A stretch of DNA of 42,198 nucleotides from a virus. Shown here one piece after another: positions 21,390 to 40,859 of this stretch. Within the stretch, counting starts at the first letter, position 1. Each line of letters starts with the position of its first letter. Both the position numbers and the translations under genes were made by a program. The stretch spans positions 1 through 42,198 of IMG/VR virus record IMGVR_UViG_3300045988_036440; one strand, 5' to 3'. The notes under the pieces were generated by a model. The model was not told the origin of the DNA, ran no database searches, and saw only the letters and a program-made list of their open reading frames with translations.

Positions 21390-22814
21390 TTATTCGCCCT
21401 CCTCGGTGTCTTCCTGCGTCTTTTCTGTCATCAGCCCTGCCAGCGGGTCACGCAGGGCGGTCACGTCCTGATAGGTCTGGCCCTGCTTTGCGGCGATCAG
21501 TTCGTCGGTCAGGGAGCCGAACAGGCCGGTCTCGTCCTCTAGTTTCTTGAGCTCGCGCATTGCCACATCTGCATCCAGAAGCCCTGCCTGAAACGCCGCA
21601 ATGATGACATCGGTCTTTTCCTTGGCGATCGTCGCCGTCTCGCTTGCGGTGGGTGTCCACAGCGGCGGGAACGTTACATCAAGGTCGATCTGCTCAATTC
21701 CTGCGCTGCGGGCCACTACAGGAAGCAGCTTGTCCAGAATGGGCCGCAGTTTGCTTTCCCTCAATGTGTCCACGTAGTCATAGTAATTTTTCAGGTCGCT
21801 TTCGCCGGTGGCGTTCATGCCCGCCGGGGAACGGCCAAAAAGCTTGGTCATGGGGTAGTGGGAGGCACCGCACAGGTTCAGGCACATGCTCTCGTACACG
21901 TCAGACAGGCCTGCAAAGGTGTACTGGGTGTTGCTGATCTTGTTTCCCTGCTCCACCAGCTGCATCCCGAAACTGGAGCGCAGGACCTTCTGGGCCTGCA
22001 TGGTGTTCCAGAAACGACGCTGCACATCCGGGCTGGACATGGAGAGCAGCTGCTCCAGCCCCTTTACCTCCATCGTGTTGACGTTCGCCTGGAAGGTCAA
22101 CGCAGCCATGTTGGCGCTTACGTTGTCGTGAGCCACCACGTCATTATAGAGCGCTTCCACCTCGGACTCGCCCCAGTAAAGCTCCGCCTGCCGTTCCAGA
22201 TCGGGAAGATCCCGGCCCACAAACCGCACAAGGCGGGAGTGATGGACACGGGCGGCAGTGTGCCCGGCGGCATCGTTGATGCTGTAATACTCCGGGACCA
22301 GCTCTCCGCCCTCAAAGGTCAGGCCTGCATCCGGGCTGATACCCTGCCAGCGGTCGAGGATGTACAATCCACGGAAGCTGCCGGGAAGAATAGCCTCTGC
22401 ATCCAGCGGGCGGGAAAGGTCCTCCTGCCCGTCAATGAGGATAAGCCCGGCGGCACCGCCATACAGGCGGCCCCATTTTAGGCCAGTGCTCACACGGTCA
22501 CGGAGCCGGGTGGAACGCTCCACAGTCTGGATCGCCTTTCCTTGCTCTGGTGTGGTGCTCTTGAGGTCGTACCACTCTCGCAGCATATCGTCCACGAGCA
22601 AGCCCACAACGTTCTGCACCACCCAGTTGCTGCGGTACAAGCTGTTCAGCAGGGCGTAATTGTCCGTCATCCGGGTCAGCGGGTATTCCGTTGCTTCCAG
22701 CGGGCTTTGGGAGCCGTACCCCAGCGAGAACAGCGGGTTGGAAAATGCGTCCAGCGTGGCCGTCATCGGTTTCTCTGTGCCCCCGGCGGGGCGGCTTTTG
22801 TTACGTCTGGACAC
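21390..22814 (-). CDS. Portal protein (DUF1073-type)
   Basis: Start proposed at GTG 22814 (RBS GGAGG, 7-nt spacer; overlaps the terL end). An alternative ATG lies at 22766. The long 22946 start in the track is rejected. Confidence 0.8.
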   Translation of the reverse strand: MSRRNKSRPAGGTEKPMTATLDAFSNPLFSLGYGSQSPLEATEYPLTRMTDNYALLNSLYRSNWVVQNVVGLLVDDMLREWYDLKSTTPEQGKAIQTVERSTRLRDRVSTGLKWGRLYGGAAGLILIDGQEDLSRPLDAEAILPGSFRGLYILDRWQGISPDAGLTFEGGELVPEYYSINDAAGHTAARVHHSRLVRFVGRDLPDLERQAELYWGESEVEALYNDVVAHDNVSANMAALTFQANVNTMEVKGLEQLLSMSSPDVQRRFWNTMQAQKVLRSSFGMQLVEQGNKISNTQYTFAGLSDVYESMCLNLCGASHYPMTKLFGRSPAGMNATGESDLKNYYDYVDTLRESKLRPILDKLLPVVARSAGIEQIDLDVTFPPLWTPTASETATIAKEKTDVIIAAFQAGLLDADVAMRELKKLEDETGLFGSLTDELIAAKQGQTYQDVTALRDPLAGLMTEKTQEDTEEGE

Positions 22815-24036
22815 GTTCAAACCTCCAATCAGGCAGTGAGTTGATATAGTAGCGCAGGGCATCCGGGCCGTGGTCCTGCTGTTTGATGGGCTTTTCCACG
22901 CCCATGAGGGCGGCTTTATCATCCCACCGGTATGTGCCGAGTTCATCCAGCAGCCCTTCGCAGTCGGTGGAGATCAGCAGATCGCGGTGGGAAAGGAGCG
23001 TGCTGCACTTGCGGATGCCGTTCAGTACGTCGTTGTTTCCTTCCATCACATAAACGCCGCGCTGTCGCAAGGCTGTGATAAAGGACGCTGCCGCCGGGTC
23101 AACGATGGCGGCGCAGGGGTCTTTCCCCATAAACTCCATGAAGGCATCGGCATACTCTTCATCTGTTTTCTGCCTGTGCTCCTGGCGGCTGTCCCACCGG
23201 TATTCCCGATGTACCCGGACTTTCTCGCCGTCATCGTATACATCGAGGTAGACGGTCGGGTTGGTGGTTCCGTAGTCGCATGTAATGGTACGGGTGGAAA
23301 GGCTCTTGAATCCCACCGGTGCGTCCTGCGGGCGGTATGTGTTGGCGGTGGTGTCCATCATATCGTAGATCAGGCCCTCGGCCATCACCCAGCGGCCCAG
23401 AATGTAGCGTTCATAGAACACGCCGCTGTACATGCTGCGGTAGCGTTCCCGGGTGCGCTCATCCAGTGACGGGTTATCGTCCATCAGGAAGTGCAGATGC
23501 AGCGCCCGGTGCTTTTTGGCCTGTAAGATCCACTCCTTGCGAAACCAGTGCTCGGGGTTTTCCGGGTTGCAATTGAACCAGGACTTGGCACCGGTGACAG
23601 AGCATCGGGCCAACGCCTGCTCCACAAAGCTGCGGGGCATGAGCGCCACCTCGTCCAGAAGCACCCCGGCCAGCGTGATGCCCTGAATGAGCATGTAAGA
23701 ACTTTCGTCCTTACCGCCGAACAGGTACACCATGTTCACCTTGCTGCCGCGCTGCACCGTGAGAACGTGGCCGCTGCGGTTGTAGGTGATCTGGAACTGC
23801 TGCTGCAAGTACCGGACAGACAAAAGCGGCTGAACAATGTTGCGTTCCACCGCGCCCACGCTCTTGCCGCAAAAGGCGAAAGAGCAGTGGTTGAATTCTG
23901 CCATCATCCAGAGCACGAAGGACAGGGACATGATGGAGGTCTTGCCGGAACGTACTGCGCCGTCGCAGATCAGGGCATCGTAGTCGCTTTCATACGGGAA
24001 GGTCAGGATCTGTTTTTGCTTCGGAGAGAAGCTCAT
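22801..24036 (-). CDS. terL: Terminase large subunit (PBSX-type)
   Basis: Walker A motif CDGAVRSGKTS. 411 aa, located after the small subunit. Confidence 0.9.
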   Translation of the reverse strand: MSFSPKQKQILTFPYESDYDALICDGAVRSGKTSIMSLSFVLWMMAEFNHCSFAFCGKSVGAVERNIVQPLLSVRYLQQQFQITYNRSGHVLTVQRGSKVNMVYLFGGKDESSYMLIQGITLAGVLLDEVALMPRSFVEQALARCSVTGAKSWFNCNPENPEHWFRKEWILQAKKHRALHLHFLMDDNPSLDERTRERYRSMYSGVFYERYILGRWVMAEGLIYDMMDTTANTYRPQDAPVGFKSLSTRTITCDYGTTNPTVYLDVYDDGEKVRVHREYRWDSRQEHRQKTDEEYADAFMEFMGKDPCAAIVDPAAASFITALRQRGVYVMEGNNDVLNGIRKCSTLLSHRDLLISTDCEGLLDELGTYRWDDKAALMGVEKPIKQQDHGPDALRYYINSLPDWRFERVQT

Positions 24037-24500
24037 TTCTTAAACTCCTCCTTCAAGCTCTTGGTGATGGGGTCGTCCTCAACGGTCTGCATAGCTTCAC
24101 TCTCAACCGGCTTGTCCTTCCATCCGAAGTTTACCTGCAAGCTGAATCTTGCGCCGTTTGTGCCGTCCCGATCGAACAGCCGTTCTTCGGCGTATTTCTC
24201 GCACCGTAGTTTCGCGCGCGTTATCGTGTCAGAAAACTCGGGCTTGCCTTGATAGTCGATTAAAGATTGCCGAGACTTAAAACCCAACGCCAAAGCTAGA
24301 CCGGTGACAGTTTCTGGACGTTCGTCGATTTTTATCACGTTTCCGTATTTGTCCAAAACAGGCTTTCCGGTTTCGTCTTCTAGGACGCTCCCTTCACAGC
24401 TTTTGAAGAACTCTTCGATTTTTTTCTCAAGTTCTTCTTTGCTCTCAAAGACGGGCGGTCTGCCTATTCTTTTTTTTTTGCTGTAGGCCACCGCCACCAC
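24033..24500 (-). CDS. terS: Terminase small subunit
   Basis: The pattern RPETVTGLALALGFKSRQSLIDY is typical of the TerS HTH region. The most likely start is GTG 24491, which lies 8 nt after AGGAAGG. Confidence 0.75.
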   Translation of the reverse strand: MVAVAYSKKKRIGRPPVFESKEELEKKIEEFFKSCEGSVLEDETGKPVLDKYGNVIKIDERPETVTGLALALGFKSRQSLIDYQGKPEFSDTITRAKLRCEKYAEERLFDRDGTNGARFSLQVNFGWKDKPVESEAMQTVEDDPITKSLKEEFKK

Positions 24501-25495: not shown

Positions 25496-25517
25496 TGTAA
25501 AAACCTCACATTTCATC

Positions 25518-25546
25518 TTGACAAATCGCTTATAAAAAAATAAAAT
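25518..25546 (+). promoter_or_regulatory. Sigma-70-type promoter: TTGACA, 17-nt spacer, TAAAAT
   Basis: Read directly. It points rightward, antisense to the leftward operon. Confidence 0.5.
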
Positions 25547-25552
25547 GGAGGT

Positions 25553-25622
25553 GCAAGGGGCTTTCGTGATGGTTTGCTTCTGGCGTTTAGCGGTTCAGCG
25601 TTCCAGCGCTGGCCGCTTTTTT
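25553..25622 (+). ncRNA. Putative antisense small RNA of about 70 nt, running from the 25518 promoter to the 25590-25622 terminator
   Basis: The promoter is followed by hairpin GCGG-TT-CAGCG-TTCCA-CGCTG-G-CCGC and a TTTTTT run. No credible ORF lies inside. Confidence 0.3.
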
Positions 25623-25685
25623 ATATTTCTCGAAACGTGCCAACTGCTCGGCTCTGGTGAGCTTTGCAAACTCCTTGCTAGTCAC
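25587..25685 (-). CDS. Possible very small protein (32 aa, GTG start)
   Basis: RBS GGGAGGTG with a 7-nt spacer. Hand translation: VTSKEFAKLTRAEQLARFEKYKKAASAGTLNR. Confidence 0.3.
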   Translation of the reverse strand: MTSKEFAKLTRAEQLARFEKYKKAASAGTLNR

Positions 25686-25743
25686 GGAGCATCACCTCCC
25701 GGTATTTGCTCCCTTGCACCTCTGACCTCCTTCCAATGCATCT

Positions 25744-25772
25744 ATTATACTACGATTTGCGTAATTCGTCAA
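25744..25772 (-). promoter_or_regulatory. Leftward near-consensus promoter: TTGACG, 17-nt spacer, TATAAT
   Basis: Minus-sense CGTATTGACGAATTACGCAAATCGTAGTATAATAGATG. Confidence 0.6.
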
Positions 25773-25816
25773 TACGTTTTTCGTAATTTCTACAAATATT
25801 TTTTACGCTTTGCGTA

Positions 25817-26152: not shown

Positions 26153-26158
26153 TTCAAA

Positions 26159-26184
26159 GCCCTGCCGCTTGGCGGGGCTTTTTT
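26159..26184 (+). terminator. Rho-independent terminator after the HTH gene
   Basis: 8-bp stem GCCCTGCC/GGCGGGGC with loop GCTT, followed by TTTTTT. Confidence 0.75.
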
Positions 26185-26193
26185 GCATAGAAT

Positions 26194-26329
26194 AGCCGTC
26201 AGCCGGATTTGAACCAGCACCCACGGAATGGATGTGCGCAGTGGTTGGCTGTGCAGTGATGTTCCCGTGGTGTCACCAGCGTTGTCCCGCCTTAAATGGG
26301 CGGCGCTCTCCCAGTTGAGCTATGACGGC
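26194..26329 (-). ncRNA. Aberrant 136-nt tRNA-like RNA. It has a Lys(UUU)-type anticodon loop with A33 and a 68-nt insertion at the variable-loop position.
   Basis: Acceptor GCCGTCA/TGACGGC. D arm GCTC-AACTGGGA-GAGC. Anticodon arm CCGCC-CATTTAA-GGCGG. T arm GCTGG-TTCAAAT-CCGGC. The insertion forms the helix CCACGGGA/TTCCGTGG, capped by a 34-nt C/A-rich loop. Confidence 0.55.
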
Positions 26330-26451
26330 ATATAAGCAGCAACGCCGTAATCTGTTTTTACCGGACAGTAAGACGTTGCCGCTGCATCCGGAACTTTCGC
26401 GGCCAGATGCCCCGCTATACTTTACACAGCCGCCCCCGGTCATGCAAAGTC

Positions 26452-26527
26452 TGGCACTCCAGGCAGGGCTCGAACCTGCAACCTACGGTTTTGGAGACCG
26501 CTGCTCTACCACTTGAGCTGCCGGAGT
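26452..26527 (-). tRNA. tRNA-Trp (anticodon CCA), with CCA encoded
   Basis: Acceptor ACTCCGG/CTGGAGT. D arm GCTC-AAGTGGTA-GAGC. Anticodon arm GCGGT-CTCCAAA-ACCGT. T arm GCAGG-TTCGAGC-CCTGC. Discriminator G, then CCA. Confidence 0.85.
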
Positions 26528-26533
26528 ATAAAA

Positions 26534-26602
26534 AGCCGCCCTTGGAATCGAACCAGCCGTGCCTACACACACGCACCGCGCTCCACATTGCGCTCAGGCG
26601 GC
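26534..26602 (-). ncRNA. Degenerate 69-nt tRNA-like element
   Basis: Acceptor GCCGCCT/GGGCGGC (7 bp, including one G-U pair). D arm GCGC-AATGTGGA-GCGC. Anticodon arm of only 4 bp with an oversize loop containing (GT)n. T loop TTCGATT on a 3-bp stem. Confidence 0.45.
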
Positions 26603-26610
26603 CATATAGC

Positions 26611-26645
26611 AAATAAAAACAGCCCACGGTTCGCCGCCGGGGCTG
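26611..26645 (-). terminator. Rho-independent terminator inside the RNA island
   Basis: Minus-sense CAGCCC..(13 nt)..GGGCTG followed by TTTTTATTT. Confidence 0.55.
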
Positions 26646-26824
26646 CTTGAGTTGACGCACATCCTGCGGGGCATGCTGGCCCGCTCGGATTTCCGGTGCT
26701 GCTGTTCACGGGCGGAGGTTTCAGGGCGTGGGCAAGATTTCAGGAATCCCACACCCACCCGCACACCGGTGGTGAATCACTCCATGCGTCAGACATGCCG
26801 CGTTACAGACTTTGCGGCGTTCGG
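26646..26824 (-). ncRNA. GC-rich, structured, non-coding stretch between tRNA-like element 4 and the terminator
   Basis: No credible ORF. Contains a 9-bp helix GGGTGTGGG/CCCACGCCC and the near-palindrome CACCACCGGTGTG. Confidence 0.25.
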
Positions 26825-26891
26825 TGCGATGTCGCGGAGTCGAACCGCGTCCCATCTCCCGGGTCGGTGGGGCACCCAAGTGTTACATCGC
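26825..26891 (-). ncRNA. Minimal 67-nt tRNA-like element with an intact acceptor/T-arm half and a collapsed D/anticodon half
   Basis: Acceptor GCGATGT/ACATCGC. T arm CGCGG-TTCGACT-CCGCG. Only 35 nt lie between them, with no canonical anticodon loop. The 3' end reads A-CC. Confidence 0.45.
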
Positions 26892-27096
26892 ATAGAAGCA
26901 GCCCGCAAAGCACGGTGTCAAAGCGAAAAAGCGTTAAGCGGCATGAACGAAAGGAGAATCCGTACGGGGCCGCGCTTTGGAAGCTGCTGAGAAGCGGCGC
27001 ACCGCTTTGCGCGGTTCCGCTTGTAATCATTTTACCACACTTCGATTCACATGTGTTTCACAACGATTCAAATAAAGCGTAGAAATCAAAGCGCTT

Positions 27097-27588
27097 TCAA
27101 TGGTCGTTTTGTACATCTTCCCAGATTTCTGCCAAAGCATCAAGCCCCTCGTGGATGTAGGTGGAGACCGAATTGTCTCTGGACAAGCCCACGTCCACCG
27201 CAATCTTCTTTTGGGGCTTCAGGTCGATATACCAGCCGCAGATGCACTTTGCTTGCTTTTCAGACCGAGCAGACCCGCTCAGGCAGTAGGCCCGCCGGGC
27301 AGCTTCGATGCGCAGTTCACAGAGATCAAGCTCCATCTGCTTGAGGTTCCGCTCTTCTGTGTCGATTCTCTCCACGGCAAAGCCCACCTTGTCACCGGCT
27401 CCACCGCCCATCGGCATCCCGCTCATGCTCTGGGTGCACTTTTCTGCAGTATCTCGGATGCGCTGGATCTTCTGCTTCTGGGCCTCGACCTGCTCCGCCA
27501 GGTCTCTGCACCGCTGGAACCACGCTTTGACGGTACGGTAGTCCGGAAGTTCCGGCTTGTTCGTGTCAGGTGTCCGGGTTTGGATCAT
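27097..27588 (-). CDS. Late-gene transcriptional regulator, RinA/ArpU-like (sigma-70 region-4-type HTH)
   Basis: Start at MIQTRTPD (RBS GGAGG, 7-nt spacer). The C-terminus KKIAVDVGLSRDNSVSTYIHEGLDAL is HTH-like. Located upstream of the packaging genes. Confidence 0.5.
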   Translation of the reverse strand: MIQTRTPDTNKPELPDYRTVKAWFQRCRDLAEQVEAQKQKIQRIRDTAEKCTQSMSGMPMGGGAGDKVGFAVERIDTEERNLKQMELDLCELRIEAARRAYCLSGSARSEKQAKCICGWYIDLKPQKKIAVDVGLSRDNSVSTYIHEGLDALAEIWEDVQNDH

Positions 27589-28166
27589 GTATCTGCCTCC
27601 ATTTCTTCGATTTCGTCGCCCCACGCATCCCAACCAGGAACACGTTGACGGGCAAAAAGTTCTATTCTAGGGACATCTCCCAGCAATTCAACGATTCTGT
27701 GTCTTGTTTCGTCCGGCTTTACGCTGTGTGCCTGTATCGGCGATTCGATCACCTGATGCACAGAATGGCTCTTGATCTGGTCGGCGGCTTTGAATCCGGG
27801 CTTCACGCCCAGCAGGCAAATTTCGACGTTTGCCCTTGTGTACGCCCCCATTCCCCAAAAATTCGTGTTCCTCTTGCGGTTTTTCTTGATCCAAGCAAAA
27901 GCACAGGTCTTGTACTCAAATCCCCACGCCCGCATAACTCGCAGAGCGTCGGCAATTTGTGGGAATGTGGCCCACATGAAGCACGCAGCGCCTTCCTTCG
28001 CAAGTTGGTTGACAGGTAACGCACAGAGCTCATCCGTTGTCATAGTGTGGTAATGCTGCTCTGCATTTCCCCGACTTTTTGGCCCTGTTCCATGCTGGCG
28101 ATAGCTCCACGGTGGGTCTGCATATATGACGGAGTACTTTTTGTTTGGAAAGTCCATATCATCCAT
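27585..28166 (-). CDS. MT-A70-family N6-adenine DNA methyltransferase
   Basis: Catalytic motif IYADPPWSY. Start at MDDMDFPNKK (ATG 28166). Confidence 0.85.
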   Translation of the reverse strand: MDDMDFPNKKYSVIYADPPWSYRQHGTGPKSRGNAEQHYHTMTTDELCALPVNQLAKEGAACFMWATFPQIADALRVMRAWGFEYKTCAFAWIKKNRKRNTNFWGMGAYTRANVEICLLGVKPGFKAADQIKSHSVHQVIESPIQAHSVKPDETRHRIVELLGDVPRIELFARQRVPGWDAWGDEIEEMEADT

Positions 28167-38326: not shown

Positions 38327-38650
38327 ATGTTTTGGAACAACTTTGAAGCTCTATGTGCTGAAAAGGGTATTTCCTACAATGCAGCAGCCGCCGATGTTGG
38401 TGTAAAATCGTCTGGAACTGTGACCGGTTGGAAAAACGGAGCAAAACCAAGAGGACCTGTATTAAAAAGGTTGGCCGATTACTTCGACGTTACTGTCGAG
38501 GAGCTCACCGGCGAAAACGAGCAAAAAGAAAAGCCCAGCACCGCCGGAGAGATAGATTTGAGTGGTCTATCTCCCGATGATGCCGAGCTTGTAAAGCTTC
38601 TATTGAAAGCGCCAGAAGCAAAGAAGAATGCGATCCGGGCGCTGCTGTGA
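38327..38650 (+). CDS. CI-like XRE HTH repressor (107 aa)
   Basis: HTH pattern FEALCAEKGISYNAAAADVGVKSSGTVTGWKNG. RBS AAAAGGGGG. Confidence 0.75.
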   Translation: MFWNNFEALCAEKGISYNAAAADVGVKSSGTVTGWKNGAKPRGPVLKRLADYFDVTVEELTGENEQKEKPSTAGEIDLSGLSPDDAELVKLLLKAPEAKKNAIRALL

Positions 38651-38782: not shown

Positions 38783-39505
38783 ATGTACGAGGTGTTAGAA
38801 TTGAAATTCAAGCACAAGGGATGTGCCATTGCGAGCGGGTTTGTTTCTCTTTTATTGTTATCACAAGTGCAATTTCATAAAGAAGATTCCCCGTTCAGTA
38901 TCATCTGGTCATCTCTTATTGTCTTTCTGGTATTTTTTTCTTTGTCCTATCTGTTCAGTCGCCTTCTGGTCTTGTTGTTCAGAAAGAAACGCAGCAAACT
39001 ATTGAAGCGGTCTGAGGTGGACTATGACATGTCAGAAACCAATAAGTCCCAAGCAGATGCCATATATACACTCAAAGACGCGCCTGTTCTTTGGAAAAGC
39101 AGTGTATCCGCATTAAAGAATGCCTTAACGCCAGAAGATTTCTTTCGGCTGTATGATGATCTCGTAGATTACGCAAAAGAAATATTGGCGGCGGAATCTG
39201 TCTGGCTTTCTTTCAATGATTCTTCAATTATTTCTAAAGAAAGCAGAGAAAACATTGCTGACGTTGCAAACGGAAATTGTTTTGAAGATGAATTAACTGC
39301 GTTTATTGAACAGTCTTATAAATTGGCAAAAGCTAAAATCGAAGTGAAAGAGACTGCTTCAGATAAAAGGAACGCCGCAAGAGCGTGGCATACCAGTTTT
39401 GACCCTTACTTGTCCAGAATGCCAGAAAAAGAGATTCATCTTCTCCATGAAAAGTACGGCGAACTTATCATGCTTGCTGATACATCAAATCTTTGTTCTC
39501 TGTGA
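38783..39505 (+). CDS. Membrane protein with two N-terminal TM helices and a cytoplasmic domain of about 160 aa. First gene of the AT-rich moron.
   Basis: TM segments CAIASGFVSLLLLSQV and FSIIWSSLIVFLVFFSLSYLFSRLLVLLF, followed by RKKRSK. The likely start is TTG 38801, after GAGGTG. Confidence 0.65.
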   Translation: MYEVLELKFKHKGCAIASGFVSLLLLSQVQFHKEDSPFSIIWSSLIVFLVFFSLSYLFSRLLVLLFRKKRSKLLKRSEVDYDMSETNKSQADAIYTLKDAPVLWKSSVSALKNALTPEDFFRLYDDLVDYAKEILAAESVWLSFNDSSIISKESRENIADVANGNCFEDELTAFIEQSYKLAKAKIEVKETASDKRNAARAWHTSFDPYLSRMPEKEIHLLHEKYGELIMLADTSNLCSL

Positions 39506-39512
39506 GGTTAAA

Positions 39513-40859
39513 ATGTCATTATTTGGAATAAAAGAAAAACAAGAACTTGAGGCCCTTCGTTCCGAGAATCAGAGCGTTACAGAAAAGAACGCTGCGCTTG
39601 AACAAGAACTGGAAGAGCTCAAAAAACAGAACGGCGCTCTTTCTGCAACAGTGGATTCTTTCCCTAAAAACCTTCCTTCATATAATGATATTCAGGAAGA
39701 AATCAAGAAAAGGACCGCTTATCTTGCTGGGTTAAAAGCTACGATTTCAGATACAGAAGATAAGCTAAAAGCGGCAAAACAAAGTCTTATCGAAGTCTCC
39801 GATGCCGTTCAGCTTCAGGATTTTGGCCTGTATACTCCGCACTACAATCTAATGCGTGCGGATGAGTACAAGGCTAAAATGATGGAGATCAGAGCCTTGC
39901 AGAAGGATATGGTTCGCAATGGCTCTGCCGTCACCGGCTCCCAGACCTGGACGGTCAACGGAAACGCTTCTAAGGGCAAAAAGATGGTGGCCGACATGCA
40001 GAAGCTGCTTCTGCGGGCGTTCAACGCTGAATGTGATGACGTAATCGAGCACGTCAAATACAACAACGTGGAAACCGCAGAAAAGCGCATCACATCCTCT
40101 CAGGAGGCAATCACAAAGCTGGGCACGATCATGGGGGTCTCCATTGTCCCTTCCTACTACCGACTGAAGCTGGAAGAACTTTATCTCGCTTTTGAGTACG
40201 CCCAGAAAAAGCAGGAAGAAAAAGAAGAGCAGCGGGAAGCCAGAGCCCAGATGCGGGAAGAGGCCAAGCTCGCAAGAGAAATCGAAGAGGCTCGGAAAAA
40301 GCTCGAAAAAGAGCAGCAGCACTATAATAATGCTCTTGCAAAGGTAAACGCCCAGCTGGATGCCGCTTCTGAAGAGGATCGAGCCGCCATCGAAGAAAAG
40401 AAGAGCATCATCGAGAGCCAGCTCCAGAAGATCGACAAGGAGTTCGCAGACGTGGATTACCGTCAGGCAAATCAGCGTGCCGGATATGTATACATCATTT
40501 CGAACATCGGAGCATTCGGAGAGAATGTGTACAAAATCGGAATGACACGGCGGCTTGACCCTCAGGATCGAGTGGACGAGCTGGGAGACGCTTCTGTTCC
40601 GTTCAATTTCGATGTTCACGCAATGATCTTCTCTGACGATGCGCCGAAACTGGAAGCCGCCCTGCACAACGCATTTGCGGACAGGAAGCTGAACTTCGTC
40701 AACCAGCGGCGGGAGTTCTTTAATGTAACGCTTGAAGAAATCAAAAAAGTTGTGAAAGAAAACTTTGACAAATCCGTTGAGTTCGTCGAACTTGCCCCCG
40801 CACAGCAATACCGTGAATCCATTCTGCTTCGGAAGAAAGTGCAACAGCAAGATAGCTAA
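39513..40859 (+). CDS. DUF4041-like plus T5orf172/MUG113 (GIY-YIG superfamily) domain protein, 448 aa. Candidate defence nuclease.
   Basis: Start at MSLFGIKEK (GAGG 5 nt upstream, overlapping the upstream stop). Long coiled coils. C-terminus GYVYIISNIGAFGENVYKIGMTRRLDPQDRVDELGDASVPFNFDVHAMIF...REFF. Confidence 0.7.
   Translation: MSLFGIKEKQELEALRSENQSVTEKNAALEQELEELKKQNGALSATVDSFPKNLPSYNDIQEEIKKRTAYLAGLKATISDTEDKLKAAKQSLIEVSDAVQLQDFGLYTPHYNLMRADEYKAKMMEIRALQKDMVRNGSAVTGSQTWTVNGNASKGKKMVADMQKLLLRAFNAECDDVIEHVKYNNVETAEKRITSSQEAITKLGTIMGVSIVPSYYRLKLEELYLAFEYAQKKQEEKEEQREARAQMREEAKLAREIEEARKKLEKEQQHYNNALAKVNAQLDAASEEDRAAIEEKKSIIESQLQKIDKEFADVDYRQANQRAGYVYIISNIGAFGENVYKIGMTRRLDPQDRVDELGDASVPFNFDVHAMIFSDDAPKLEAALHNAFADRKLNFVNQRREFFNVTLEEIKKVVKENFDKSVEFVELAPAQQYRESILLRKKVQQQDS

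What the first reader, a model, noticed from the sequence alone, without database searches (positions are those of the whole stretch)
26194..26891. An RNA island holds one canonical tRNA-Trp and three aberrant tRNA-like elements, one with a 68-nt insertion
Four minus-strand elements have tRNA acceptor and T-arm architecture, but only one is canonical: tRNA-Trp(CCA), 26452-26527.
- Element 26194-26329 has perfect acceptor, D, anticodon and T stems. Its anticodon loop is CAUUUAA (UUU, Lys type), with A in place of the universal U33. A 68-nt insertion where the variable loop should be folds into an 8-bp helix that presents a 34-nt C/A-rich loop with internal direct repeats (CACTGC, ACATC).
- Elements 26534-26602 and 26825-26891 are only 67-69 nt long. 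They keep 7-bp acceptor stems and T loops but lack a normal anticodon arm. One has a (GT)n-expanded loop. The other has only 35 nt for the D and anticodon regions combined.
- Between them lie about 180 nt of GC-rich structured RNA and an internal terminator. An extended -10 (TGgTAAAAT, about 27029-27037) lies upstream.

Possible roles are all inference: nuclease-resistant or decoy tRNAs against host anticodon nucleases (PrrC/RloC, PARIS-type or VapC-like effectors, which act around positions 32-38); tRNA-like processing punctuation that releases a non-coding RNA; or simply decaying tRNA genes.
Basis: partly seen in the sequence, partly recalled or inferred. Interest (0 to 1): 0.8.

Follow-up and report, generated by a model that had tools for sequence, protein, structure and literature searches.

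The report
Phage tRNA mimics with knotted arm
Next to one normal tRNA, this gut phage carries three conserved tRNA-shaped RNAs that cannot be ordinary tRNAs; one belongs to a widespread family I could not find described, with a folded 65-nt extra domain and an anticodon loop that breaks a near-universal tRNA rule, and it may act as a decoy against bacterial tRNA-cutting defences.

Summary
On the minus strand of 26194-26891 lie one canonical tRNA-Trp and three non-canonical tRNA-like genes. None is a decaying pseudogene: all three are conserved in related gut-phage contigs, with compensatory base changes.

The 136-nt element (26194-26329) belongs to a family found in more than 240 viral and human-gut metagenome contigs. 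No annotation or paper describing it turned up. Its "insertion" is not an open C/A-rich loop. It is a folded domain: a one-pair mini-hairpin with an anticodon-loop-like 7-nt loop (L1), an 8-bp helix (P1) and an inner hairpin (P2) whose loop (L2) pairs with L1. Covariation supports this (UGGU:ACCA, UGGC:GCCA, UGAU:AUCA, GAC:GUC).

Across the family the tRNA frame and this domain stay constant while the anticodon arm is swapped. There are Lys-, Asn- and Ser-like loops with A33 or C33, 6-nt Ala-like loops, canonical Ile/Thr/Arg-like loops, and long hairpins with no anticodon. Some phages carry both the Lys-like element and a canonical tRNA-Lys.

The best reading, which is inference, is a set of non-decoding tRNA mimics expressed from the late promoter, probably baits for host factors that target tRNA. 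RNA-RNA assembly through kissing loops is the main rival. Function is untested.

The parts
27029..27037 (-). Extended -10-like TGgTAAAAT with no -35, just downstream of the late sigma-like regulator gene (27097-27633) and of short direct repeats. Presumed late, activator-dependent promoter of the RNA operon.
   Evidence: Sequence. The consensus scan does not call it. The same layout (repeats plus extended -10 after the regulator gene) is seen in L003 and L169. The regulator is phrog_36 / Sigma70_r4-like.
26892..27022 (-). Structured leader ending in GCUGCUUCUAU, the motif that precedes the tRNA-like 5' ends.
   Evidence: Partly conserved against L001. MFE fold -50.5 kcal/mol.
26825..26891 (-). 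mt1: 67-nt tRNA-like RNA. It has a 7-bp acceptor stem, a 5-bp T arm with loop UUCGACU, a short D-like hairpin, and a central 6-bp arm with a 9-nt loop GA-CCCGGG-A (palindrome). It is followed by CC-G, a near-CCA.
   Evidence: 31 distinct homologues. Compensatory changes occur in the acceptor stem (GCGAUGU/ACAUCGC vs GCGAUAC/GUAUCGC), the T stem (CGCGG/CCGCG, GGCGG/CCGCC, UGUGG/CCACA) and the central stem (CCCACC/GAUGGG vs CCUGUC/GACAGG). The alternative loop carries another palindrome, CUCAUGAG. No Rfam or ARAGORN call.
26667..26812 (-). GC-rich spacer RNA, variable between lineages.
   Evidence: Aligned only in relatives more than 92% identical and replaced in the others.
26611..26646 (-). 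Terminator-like hairpin plus U-run directly upstream of mt2.
   Evidence: dG -18.7 kcal/mol. Conserved in more than 70 loci. Not called by the simple scan because of its loop size.
26534..26602 (-). mt2: 69-nt tRNA-like RNA. It has a 7-bp acceptor stem, a D arm (GCGC/GCGC, loop with GG), a 5-bp anticodon-like stem with hexaloop GUGUAG, no variable loop, and a T arm with only 3 Watson-Crick pairs plus conserved mismatches.
   Evidence: 54 distinct homologues. 97.7% of cells paired against 29-54% when slid, and 4 pairs changed on both sides (0 of 500 shuffles). Weak tRNA-Sec-like hit only (18.9 bits, E=1.1). R1 score 22 bits.
26452..26527 (-). Canonical tRNA-Trp(CCA) with encoded CCA.
   Evidence: ARAGORN; Rfam 59.3 bits.
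26380..26417 (-). Conserved spacer hairpin (UAGCGGGGCAUCUGGCCGCGAAAGUUCCGGAUGCAGCG) between tRNA-Trp and the long element.
   Evidence: About 90-100% column conservation over 71 distinct sequences. Also present downstream of the L169-type element.
26194..26329 (-). LI element: 136-nt tRNA-like RNA with a full tRNA frame (acceptor, D, anticodon and T arms) and a roughly 65-nt structured variable-arm domain.
   Evidence: Rfam tRNA 44.6 bits. Own covariance model R1 gives 163 bits, against 46 bits or less for ordinary tRNAs. 93.5-94.1% of cells paired against 30-45% when slid, and 29-32 of 41 pairs changed on both sides.
26292..26298 (-). Anticodon loop CAUUUAA: Lys(UUU)-like, with A in place of U33.
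   Evidence: Sequence. No U33, C33 or G33 variant was found on the same 5' half. A33 recurs in CAUUUAA, AAUUUAA, UAUUUAA, CAUUUGA, GAGUUAA and UAGUUAA on different frames.
26272..26280 (-). L1 mini-hairpin G-[CUGGUGA]-C: one closing pair and a 7-nt loop shaped like an anticodon loop (Y U G R N G A).
   Evidence: The closing pair covaries (GC:27/AU:24; AU:34/GC:9).
26221..26270 (-). P1 helix (26263-26270 with 26221-26228) enclosing the P2 hairpin (26249-26255 with 26235-26241). The P2 loop L2, CCAACCA (26242-26248), pairs with L1: U52-A88, G53-C87, G54-C86, U55-A85 in RNA numbering.
   Evidence: 7 of 8 P1 pairs and 7 of 7 P2 pairs change on both sides. The L1:L2 pairs were not part of the model structure and read GC:35/AU:14 and UA:36/CG:10, and GC:23/AU:16 and UA:21/CG:17. 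The complementary triplet lies in a predicted hairpin loop in 63 of 71 domain classes.
26156..26186 (.). Hairpin between the RNA operon and the convergent plus-strand HTH genes. It is a good terminator for the plus strand (T6 run) and a weak one for the minus strand.
   Evidence: Sequence. Weak isrJ-type terminator matches on both strands.

Best explanation
The region is an operon of tRNA-shaped RNAs. It sits immediately downstream of the phage's late sigma-like regulator gene and upstream of the packaging genes.

Shown:
- The 136-nt element belongs to a large family in gut phages that carries no annotation. The family keeps a complete tRNA frame. In place of the variable loop it has a self-contained domain of about 65 nt: mini-hairpin L1, helix P1, and hairpin P2 with loop L2. 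L1 and L2 are kept complementary through evolution.
- Across the family the frame and this domain are constant. The anticodon arm is exchanged and is usually defective for decoding: A33 or C33, 6-nt loops, 8-bp stems, or a triloop.
- mt1 and mt2 are two further conserved tRNA-like RNAs with normal acceptor and T-arm halves and non-tRNA lower halves.

Inferred:
- The RNAs are cut out of the late transcript by the host tRNA-processing enzymes (RNase P at the 5' end, RNase Z or exonucleases plus the CCA-adding enzyme at the 3' end) and accumulate as stable L-shaped molecules.
- They do not decode.
- The long element offers a look-alike anticodon loop (here Lys UUU with U33 changed to A) to a host factor that recognises anticodon loops. 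The most plausible target is a tRNA-cleaving defence nuclease of the PrrC/RloC/PARIS/VapC kind. The element would bind it without being productively cleaved.
- The extra domain would keep the mimic out of translation, stabilise it, or both.
For: Family and structure:
- Searches recover more than 240 contigs, mostly human gut.
- Searches give 93.5-94.1% of cells paired against 30-45% when slid. The covariation score is 0.47-0.59 against 0.18-0.19 in shuffles (0 of 500). The pseudoknot pairs covary although they were not in the model.

Not a faithful decoder:
- The same frame carries UUU, GUU, GCU and UGC loops. The UGC type has C3-G70, so it lacks the AlaRS identity pair G3-U70 (established knowledge).
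- Position 73 varies among A, U, G and C.
- Several lineages lack G18-G19 in the D loop.
- Some members have 8-bp anticodon stems or an AAG triloop.

The anticodon loop is under selection:
- It is invariant in about 100 type-A genomes whose acceptor and T stems have diverged.
- A33 is present in all six Lys- and Asn-like loop variants, on at least four unrelated frames.

Distinct from a decoding tRNA-Lys:
- L047, L022 and L199 carry both the Lys-like element and a canonical tRNA-Lys(UUU).
- L169 and L183 carry a non-decoding family member followed by a canonical tRNA-Lys(UUU).

Precedent:
- Phage tRNA-Lys variants neutralise PARIS and PrrC through changes in the anticodon stem-loop (PMC10802454, PMC11555353).

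Late expression:
- The element sits directly after the sigma-like regulator and before HNH/terS/terL in lineages A-G.
Against: - No tRNA-targeting nuclease of the unknown host was identified, and no expression, processing, charging or cleavage data exist.
- A decoy does not obviously need a conserved 65-nt pseudoknotted domain.
- Some members (L175, L223, L236, L237, L227, L243) have canonical-looking Ile, Thr or Arg loops with U33, so 'defective loop' is not universal.
- Several anticodon loops contain 4-8-nt palindromes (UUAA, UGCA, AGCU, GUAC, UUUUAAAA), and mt1 carries a 6-8-nt palindrome. These point to RNA-RNA pairing rather than protein baiting.
- The first two database scans fixed the anticodon-loop sequence, which inflates its apparent invariance. 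This was only partly corrected.
Confidence: 0.4

Rival explanations
1. RNA-RNA assembly. The tRNA-like RNAs are building blocks of a higher-order RNA or RNP particle. The tRNA frame would mainly provide processing and stability. The particle would act late, for example in packaging or sequestration, like the phage-associated ROOL and GOLLD cages.
For: - Covariation cannot tell intra- from intermolecular L1:L2 pairing.
- The mt1 loops are palindromes in both sequence variants: GA-CCCGGG-A and G-CUCAUGAG-A.
- Several anticodon loops of the family contain palindromes, including UUUUAAAA in L231 and L242.
- The genes lie directly upstream of HNH/terS/terL/portal and behind the late promoter.
- ROOL and GOLLD are phage RNAs near tRNA islands, and kissing loops first predicted there as tertiary contacts proved to be intermolecular (PMC12286853).
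Against: - P1 (8 bp) and P2 (7 bp) are of matching length, joined by 6-7-nt linkers. That geometry suits an intramolecular fold-back.
- A 4-bp kiss is weak for assembly on its own.
- It does not explain the recurrence of A33 in Lys- and Asn-like loops.
- No Rfam match to pRNA, ROOL or GOLLD.
Confidence: 0.2
2. Nuclease-resistant but translationally active tRNA-Lys. The 136-nt RNA is charged with lysine and decodes AAA/AAG. A33 and the bulky variable arm merely prevent cleavage by host anticodon nucleases.
For: - All tRNA stems and tertiary nucleotides are present in the window copy (U8, A14, G18-G19, T loop), with a UUU anticodon followed by A37-A38.
- In L169 and L183 a canonical tRNA-Lys occupies the same genomic slot.
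- Known precedent: T5 tRNA-Lys against PARIS (PMC10802454).
Against: - U33 is near-universal and needed for the U-turn (established knowledge).
- Some phages carry both this element and a canonical tRNA-Lys.
- The same frame carries anticodons whose synthetases need different acceptor identities.
- The discriminator base is not conserved.
- Relatives have non-decoding anticodon arms.
Confidence: 0.15
3. Cis-acting elements of the late transcript. The tRNA-like folds serve as RNase P/Z punctuation that defines and stabilises the ends of the late mRNA or releases the spacer RNAs. Alternatively they modify RNA polymerase to read through the terminators that follow them.
For: - They always lie between the late promoter and the first late genes.
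- Hairpin-plus-U-run elements precede or follow each unit.
- In L169 the last tRNA abuts the HNH gene's ribosome-binding site.
Against: - Any ordinary tRNA would punctuate.
- This does not explain the conserved pseudoknotted domain, the swapped anticodon loops or A33.
- In the window the island is separated from terS by a convergent gene pair and a terminator.
- The spacer RNA that would be 'released' is the least conserved part.
Confidence: 0.1
4. Degenerating tRNA genes, or a tRNA gene interrupted by a selfish insertion or intron with no function of its own.
For: - ARAGORN fails on three of the four elements.
- The number of GU repeats varies in mt2.
- One relative (L068) has an internal deletion of P2.
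Against: - Strong purifying selection and compensatory evolution in every helix, including a pseudoknot.
- The inserted domain keeps its length (about 67 nt) and architecture in lineages whose domain sequences cannot be aligned.
- No ribozyme or intron family matches.
- No bacterial mechanism is known for splicing in the variable loop (established knowledge).
Confidence: 0.03

Closest known systems
Phage tRNAs that evade tRNA-targeting defences (T5 tRNA-Lys vs PARIS; tRNA-Lys vs PrrC; tRNA-Tyr vs retron-Eco7 PtuAB)
   Same: Phage-encoded, tRNA-shaped, with altered anticodon stem-loops. Lys(UUU) is the recurrent theme. Some relatives of this phage also carry a canonical tRNA-Lys(UUU) (PMC10802454, PMC11555353, PMC10264068).
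   Different: The known cases are ordinary-sized, decoding tRNAs that replace the cleaved host tRNA. Here U33 is replaced, a 65-nt structured domain is added, and the frame is shared by loops of different amino-acid types, so decoding is unlikely.
Class II tRNAs (Leu, Ser, Tyr, Sec) and allo-tRNAs with long variable arms
   Same: The extra arm emerges between the anticodon and T arms. Rfam's tRNA model accommodates it as an insertion.
   Different: Known variable arms are simple hairpins of at most about 25 nt that start at positions 45-46. Here there are about 65 nt, with a mini-hairpin, two helices and a loop-loop pseudoknot. The acceptor/T split is 7/5, not 8/4 or 9/3 (PMC5389517).
phi29 pRNA, and the ROOL and GOLLD phage RNAs
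   Same: Phage-encoded structured RNAs with covarying complementary loops. ROOL and GOLLD lie near tRNA islands and rise late in infection (PMC12286853). The genes here lie next to the packaging genes.
   Different: No sequence or model match. These RNAs are much smaller than ROOL or GOLLD and built on a tRNA frame. The phage uses a terS/terL terminase. Oligomerisation is not shown.
tmRNA and bacterial Y RNA (YrlA): tRNA-like domains fused to other modules
   Same: A tRNA-like acceptor and T-arm half joined to pseudoknotted, non-tRNA structure.
   Different: ARAGORN finds no tmRNA and there is no tag reading frame or G3-U70 pair. YrlA has permuted topology (its ends lie in the Ro-binding stem) and does not match (PMC4201824).
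T4 species I and II stable RNAs, and gammaherpesvirus MHV68 tRNA-miRNA hybrids (recalled from memory, not tested here)
   Same: Viral stable RNAs encoded in or next to tRNA clusters, matured by tRNA-processing enzymes, tRNA-like but not used in decoding.
   Different: No sequence relationship is known. No equivalent of the L1/P1/P2/L2 domain or of the swapped anticodon loops has been described for them.

Membership tests
Canonical tRNA (Rfam RF00005) | Cloverleaf with 7-bp acceptor, 4-bp D, 5-bp anticodon and 5-bp T stems, plus a T loop | tested here: met
   The 136-nt element scores 44.6 bits (gathering threshold 29) and all four stems covary. mt1 and mt2 do not reach the threshold.
Canonical tRNA (Rfam RF00005) | 7-nt anticodon loop with U33 | tested here: not met
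   The loop is CAUUUAA with A33. No U33 variant was found on this frame.
Canonical tRNA (Rfam RF00005) | Variable region of 4-5 nt (class I) or a simple hairpin of up to about 25 nt (class II) | tested here: not met
   About 65 extra nt forming L1, P1, P2 and an L1:L2 pseudoknot. ARAGORN does not call it.
Canonical tRNA (Rfam RF00005) | Aminoacylation and use on the ribosome, with identity elements consistent with the anticodon | tested here: inconclusive
   Charging cannot be tested with these tools. Indirectly, position 73 varies among A, U, G and C, and the same acceptor stem carries UUU, GUU, GCU and UGC loops.
tmRNA | tRNA-like domain without an anticodon arm, a G3-U70 pair, and a tag reading frame between pseudoknots | tested here: not met
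   ARAGORN finds none in the window. The acceptor has C3-G70, an anticodon arm is present, and there is no stop-terminated tag frame in the insertion (by inspection).
allo-tRNA / tRNA-Sec | 12-13-bp acceptor-plus-T branch split 8/4, 9/3 or 8/5 | tested here: not met
   The 136-nt element is 7/5. mt2 is 7/3 with conserved mismatches and gives only a weak tRNA-Sec hit (18.9 bits against a gathering score of 47).
Small self-cleaving ribozymes or group I intron in a tRNA | Match to a hammerhead, twister, pistol, hatchet or group I model, with a conserved catalytic core | tested here: not met
   No such Rfam hit even at E<=10. The CUGAUGA-like L1 varies at positions essential in hammerheads (UUGGUGA, UUGACGA).
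phi29-type pRNA / ROOL / GOLLD | Match to the family model | tested here: not met
   No hits in the window or in six related loci.
phi29-type pRNA / ROOL / GOLLD | Intermolecular loop-loop pairing giving a defined oligomer | not testable with these tools
   Complementary covarying loops exist, but intra- versus intermolecular pairing cannot be decided from sequence.
Phage anti-defence tRNA (PARIS/PrrC escape type) | Rescues infection when the host tRNA is cleaved and is itself resistant to the nuclease | not testable with these tools
   There is only contextual support: the Lys-like loop with A33, and co-occurrence with canonical tRNA-Lys.

The most novel reading that the evidence does not exclude
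Gut phages encode a class of modular tRNA mimic that I could not find described. It has a constant tRNA frame plus a pseudoknotted variable-arm domain, on which exchangeable anticodon-loop 'baits' are displayed (Lys-, Asn-, Ser- or Ala-like, made non-functional by A33, C33 or a 6-nt loop). These would neutralise anticodon-directed immune nucleases late in infection. Two further minimal tRNA-like RNAs would accompany it as companion decoys or assembly partners.
Probability: 0.35. Interest if true: 0.9.

Novelty: new variant of a known kind. Interest (0 to 1): 0.8.

Why it matters
tRNA cleavage is emerging as a major arm of bacterial immunity (PrrC, RloC, PARIS, retron and Septu PtuAB, OLD, Schlafen, Cas13, Cas12a3). 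The known phage answer is to bring replacement tRNAs. A family of non-decoding tRNA mimics with swappable anticodon loops would be a second, RNA-based counter-strategy. The loop repertoire (Lys, Asn, Ser, Ala, Ile, Thr, Arg) would then report which tRNAs are attacked in hosts from the human gut, probably Oscillospiraceae or Faecalibacterium, that are hard to culture.

Whatever the function, the finding adds a well-supported structured RNA domain. It also shows that tRNA finders silently miss conserved phage RNA genes: ARAGORN calls one of four here. The frame tolerates a 65-nt insert, which is of interest for tRNA-scaffold engineering.

Tried and rejected
- **Suppressor tRNA or recoding.** A shifted reading of the loop as UUA or CUA was considered. 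It was rejected because the structural genes are intact in the standard code and the loop geometry does not fit.
- **L1 as the true anticodon.** The L1 loop is YUGRNGA (GGU, GAU, GAC or GGC). It was rejected because it has a single closing pair and its triplet is paired to L2.
- **Pairing of the 5' segment with UCACUG in the insertion loop.** Rejected because there is no covariation in types B and C.
- **Hammerhead core in CUGAUGA-type L1.** Rejected because essential positions vary and there is no Rfam hit.
- **tmRNA or two-piece tmRNA spanning mt1 to mt2.** Rejected because each element closes its own acceptor stem and ARAGORN finds nothing.
- **attP or tRNA-gene fragment.** Rejected because the tRNA-like units are complete and far from the integrase (37-1035).
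- **A specific protein partner.** I looked next to distant family members and found only HNH endonucleases, DNA methyltransferases and unknowns.
- **A phage-borne tRNA nuclease needing self-immunity.** The only defence gene found is PD-Lambda-1, which has no known link to tRNA.
- **Host identification.** The single genome-collection scan gave one probably mis-binned MAG contig. The phage isolate database holds only two unannotated fragments.
- **Simple promoter/terminator scan.** It found nothing in the region.
- **Literature.** Searches found no description of this family.
- **Formal pair count for mt1.** Not done, because MAFFT misaligned the window's acceptor strand. The compensatory changes for mt1 were read by eye.
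Full report
**Context**

The window is a nearly complete temperate, contractile-tailed phage genome. It carries an integrase (37-1035, +), tape measure protein, tail sheath, portal (21390-22946), terL, terS (24033-24500), an anti-repressor and HTH insert, and a repressor-like gene. The finding lies between a late sigma-like regulator (27097-27633, phrog_36; its homologues carry Sigma70_r4) and the packaging genes. A short stretch nearby (25500-25775) is about 79% identical to Faecalibacterium phages. The closest relatives are human faecal and gut contigs.

**Check of the observation**

ARAGORN calls only tRNA-Trp(CCA) at 26452-26527. Rfam calls that tRNA (59.3 bits). Above its gathering threshold it also calls 26194-26329 as a tRNA, with all of its extra length placed in the variable region (44.6 bits). 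At permissive thresholds 26534-26602 gives only a weak tRNA-Sec-like hit (18.9 bits, E=1.1), and 26825-26891 gives nothing. The coordinates, the anticodon loop CAUUUAA with A33, the acceptor and T arms of the two short elements, the extended -10-like TGgTAAAAT (27029-27037) and the hairpin plus U-run (26611-26646, -18.7 kcal/mol) are all in the sequence. The simple promoter/terminator scan reports nothing, so those two signals rest on inspection only.

**Conservation**

An unannotated faecal phage fragment (MT839005) aligns across the island. The 136-nt element is nearly identical there, while the flanks have diverged.

Further scans avoided or varied the anticodon loop. They added 29, 38 and 19 viral contigs and 59 metagenome contigs, though the 29 include contigs already retrieved and some chance matches.

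In these relatives the block 26195-26666 (terminator hairpin, mt2, tRNA-Trp, a spacer hairpin and the long element) is conserved at 77-87% in more than 70 loci. The mt1 region is conserved at about 72%. The GC-rich 26667-26812 stretch aligns only in relatives more than 92% identical. The long element also occurs alone, without tRNA-Trp, mt1 or mt2, in other phage lineages (L003, L011, L019, L028). It is therefore the core unit.

**Structure of the long element**

The inserted segment comes in at least seven sequence types that cannot be aligned with one another. Most are nevertheless 67-68 nt long. All share the following parts:
- a 5' motif (A/U)CAAC-R-[Y U G R N G A]-Y-AC, in which R and Y covary (G-C to A-U);
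- helix P1 of 6-8 bp;
- an inner hairpin P2 with a 7-9-nt loop.

The triplet G-R-N of the first loop (L1) always has its Watson-Crick complement in the P2 loop (L2), usually extended by a U-A pair:
- UGGU with ACCA (the window's type);
- UGGC with GCCA;
- UGAU with AUCA;
- (U)GAC with GUC(A).

The complement lies in a predicted hairpin loop in 63 of 71 distinct domain classes. Most exceptions are G-U wobbles or misfolds.

On a MAFFT alignment of 92 distinct sequences, 94.1% of cells pair, against 33-45% when the partners are slid. I built a covariance model without the pseudoknot (R1). It scores family members at 56-167 bits and ordinary tRNAs at 46 bits or less. On alignments made with this model, 29 of 41 pairs (51 sequences) and 32 of 41 pairs (46 distinct sequences, including very distant frames) change on both sides. 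The covariation scores are 0.47 and 0.59, against 0.19 and 0.18 in shuffles (0 of 500). The two variable L1:L2 pairs, which the model did not know about, read GC:35/AU:14 and UA:36/CG:10, and then GC:23/AU:16 and UA:21/CG:17.

The '34-nt C/A-rich loop' is not open: it is a folded hairpin docked on, or paired with, L1. Whether that pairing is within one molecule or between molecules cannot be told from sequence. P1 and P2 have matching lengths, which suits a fold-back.

**The anticodon arm is the variable module**

On near-identical frames and extra domains the loop reads:
- CAUUUAA (majority), AAUUUAA, or GAGUUAA (about 18 contigs);
- UCGCUAA;
- a one-nucleotide-shorter UUUUGCA or UGUUGCA.

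On unrelated frames from lower-GC phages it reads UAUUUAA, CAUUUGA, UAGUUAA, AAGCUAA, CUGAUAA, AUGGUAG, UUUCUAA or UUUUAAAA. One lineage has an 8-bp stem with CUGRUAC, or a long stem with an AAG triloop.

Every Lys-like and Asn-like loop has A33: six variants on at least four frames. One Ser-like loop has A33 and the other C33. A search for U33, C33 or G33 on the window's frame found only unrelated ordinary tRNAs. The UGC type keeps C3-G70 and so lacks the alanine identity pair. The discriminator base varies among all four nucleotides. Several lineages have D loops without G18-G19. These features argue against faithful decoding.

L047, L022 and L199 carry both the Lys-like element and a canonical tRNA-Lys(UUU). 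In L169 and L183 a non-decoding family member is followed by a canonical tRNA-Lys. The two kinds of RNA are therefore not redundant, and lysine tRNA seems to matter to these phages.

**The two short elements**

mt2 (26534-26602) has 54 distinct homologues. 97.7% of cells pair, against 29-54% when slid, and four pairs change on both sides. Its T stem has only 2-3 Watson-Crick pairs, with conserved purine or C-A mismatches.

mt1 (26825-26891) has 31 distinct homologues, with compensatory changes in the acceptor, T and central stems (read by eye). Its central loop is a palindrome flanked by purines in both sequence variants (GA-CCCGGG-A and G-CUCAUGAG-A). That is the layout of a dimerisation loop. 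mt1 ends in A-CC-G, and some relatives encode the full ACCA.

Neither element looks like a decaying gene.

**Expression context**

In the window, L003, L169 and L183 the regulator gene is followed by short direct repeats and an extended -10 without a -35. Then come a leader, the tRNA-like genes (each preceded by a hairpin and a GCUGCUU(A/C)UAU-type leader), and HNH/terS/terL. This is the layout of an activator-dependent late promoter, but no expression data exist.

**Interpretation**

What is shown is a widespread family of tRNA-shaped phage RNAs for which I found no description. It has a conserved pseudoknotted variable-arm domain and an exchangeable, usually non-canonical anticodon arm, and it sits together with two other conserved minimal tRNA-like RNAs.

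What I infer (confidence about 0.4) is that these are non-decoding mimics matured by the tRNA-processing machinery. The anticodon loop would act as a bait for a host factor that reads anticodon loops, most plausibly a tRNA-cleaving defence nuclease. The precedents are T5 tRNA-Lys against PARIS and tRNA-Lys against PrrC (PMC10802454, PMC11555353, PMC10264068). The extra domain would exclude the mimic from translation or stabilise it.

The main rival (about 0.2) is RNA-RNA assembly through the L1:L2 and palindromic loops, by analogy with pRNA and with ROOL and GOLLD. Those are phage RNAs near tRNA islands in which kissing loops found by covariation turned out to be intermolecular (PMC12286853). 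A nuclease-resistant but active tRNA-Lys (about 0.15), cis-acting punctuation or antitermination (about 0.1), and decay or a selfish insertion (about 0.03) follow.

**Novelty**

No Rfam family other than tRNA matches. No annotated phage isolate carries the element. One species-representative genome contig carries it. Six literature searches found no description. I class it as a new variant of a known kind (viral tRNA-like non-coding RNA), with a new structural module.

Noticed in passing
window 39399-40859 (+), with the HTH gene at 38327-38650 (+): A low-GC insert (about 42% GC against 55-60% elsewhere) encodes a PD-Lambda-1 anti-phage defence protein (PADLOC E=3e-161; Pfam DUF4041 + T5orf172), so this temperate phage carries a defence gene. 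No link to tRNA is known.
   Followed up: partly
window 26380-26417 (-): A spacer hairpin with a GAAA-type loop (UAGCGGGGCAUCUGGCCGCGAAAGUUCCGGAUGCAGCG) is about as conserved as the tRNA-like genes. It recurs downstream of a different family member in L169 and L183. Its function is unknown (processing site?).
   Followed up: partly
window 26825-26891 (-), loop at about 26856-26864; relatives L010, L001: The central loop of mt1 is a purine-flanked palindrome in both sequence variants (CCCGGG; CUCAUGAG), like a retroviral dimerisation loop. This suggests mt1 homodimerises.
   Followed up: partly
window 26892-26902, 26603-26610, 26330-26343 (-): Each tRNA-like gene is preceded by a hairpin and a similar U-rich leader (GCUGCUUCUAU, GCUAUAU, GCUGCUUAUAU). 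This could be a shared processing signal or a trace of duplication.
   Followed up: no
L047:1868-2434 (-), L022, L199: Downstream of the Lys-like element some relatives have gained a cassette of terminator, a roughly 75-aa ORF, terminator and canonical tRNA-Lys(UUU). The junction is exactly at the tRNA 3' end, and the same 3' flank (CATTCGATATTTTGACCG) follows either gene. This suggests recombination at tRNA 3' ends.
   Followed up: partly
L261:1310-1524 (-): A second, 215-nt weak match to model R1 (46 bits) on the same contig as a family member. It may be a relative with a much larger variable-arm domain.
   Followed up: no
window 27040-27100 (-); L169:4020-4100; L003:9060-9150: Short direct repeats lie between the regulator gene's stop codon and the extended -10 (GCGCTTTGATTT and ACGCTTTATTTGA in the window; GTCCGATTT repeats in L169; GCACTGTTTT repeats in L003). 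They differ by lineage and are probably the activator's binding sites.
   Followed up: no
L202 (CAVEID010000025.1, labelled Oxalobacter sp. MAG): The only hit in the species-representative genome collection is a 24-kb MAG contig carrying the element plus tRNA-Gly and tRNA-Trp. It is probably a phage contig binned with the wrong genome, so it gives no reliable host.
   Followed up: no
window 25500-25775: About 79% nucleotide identity to a hypothetical-protein gene of Faecalibacterium phages FP_Taranis and Pioen. This is the only host clue in the window.
   Followed up: no
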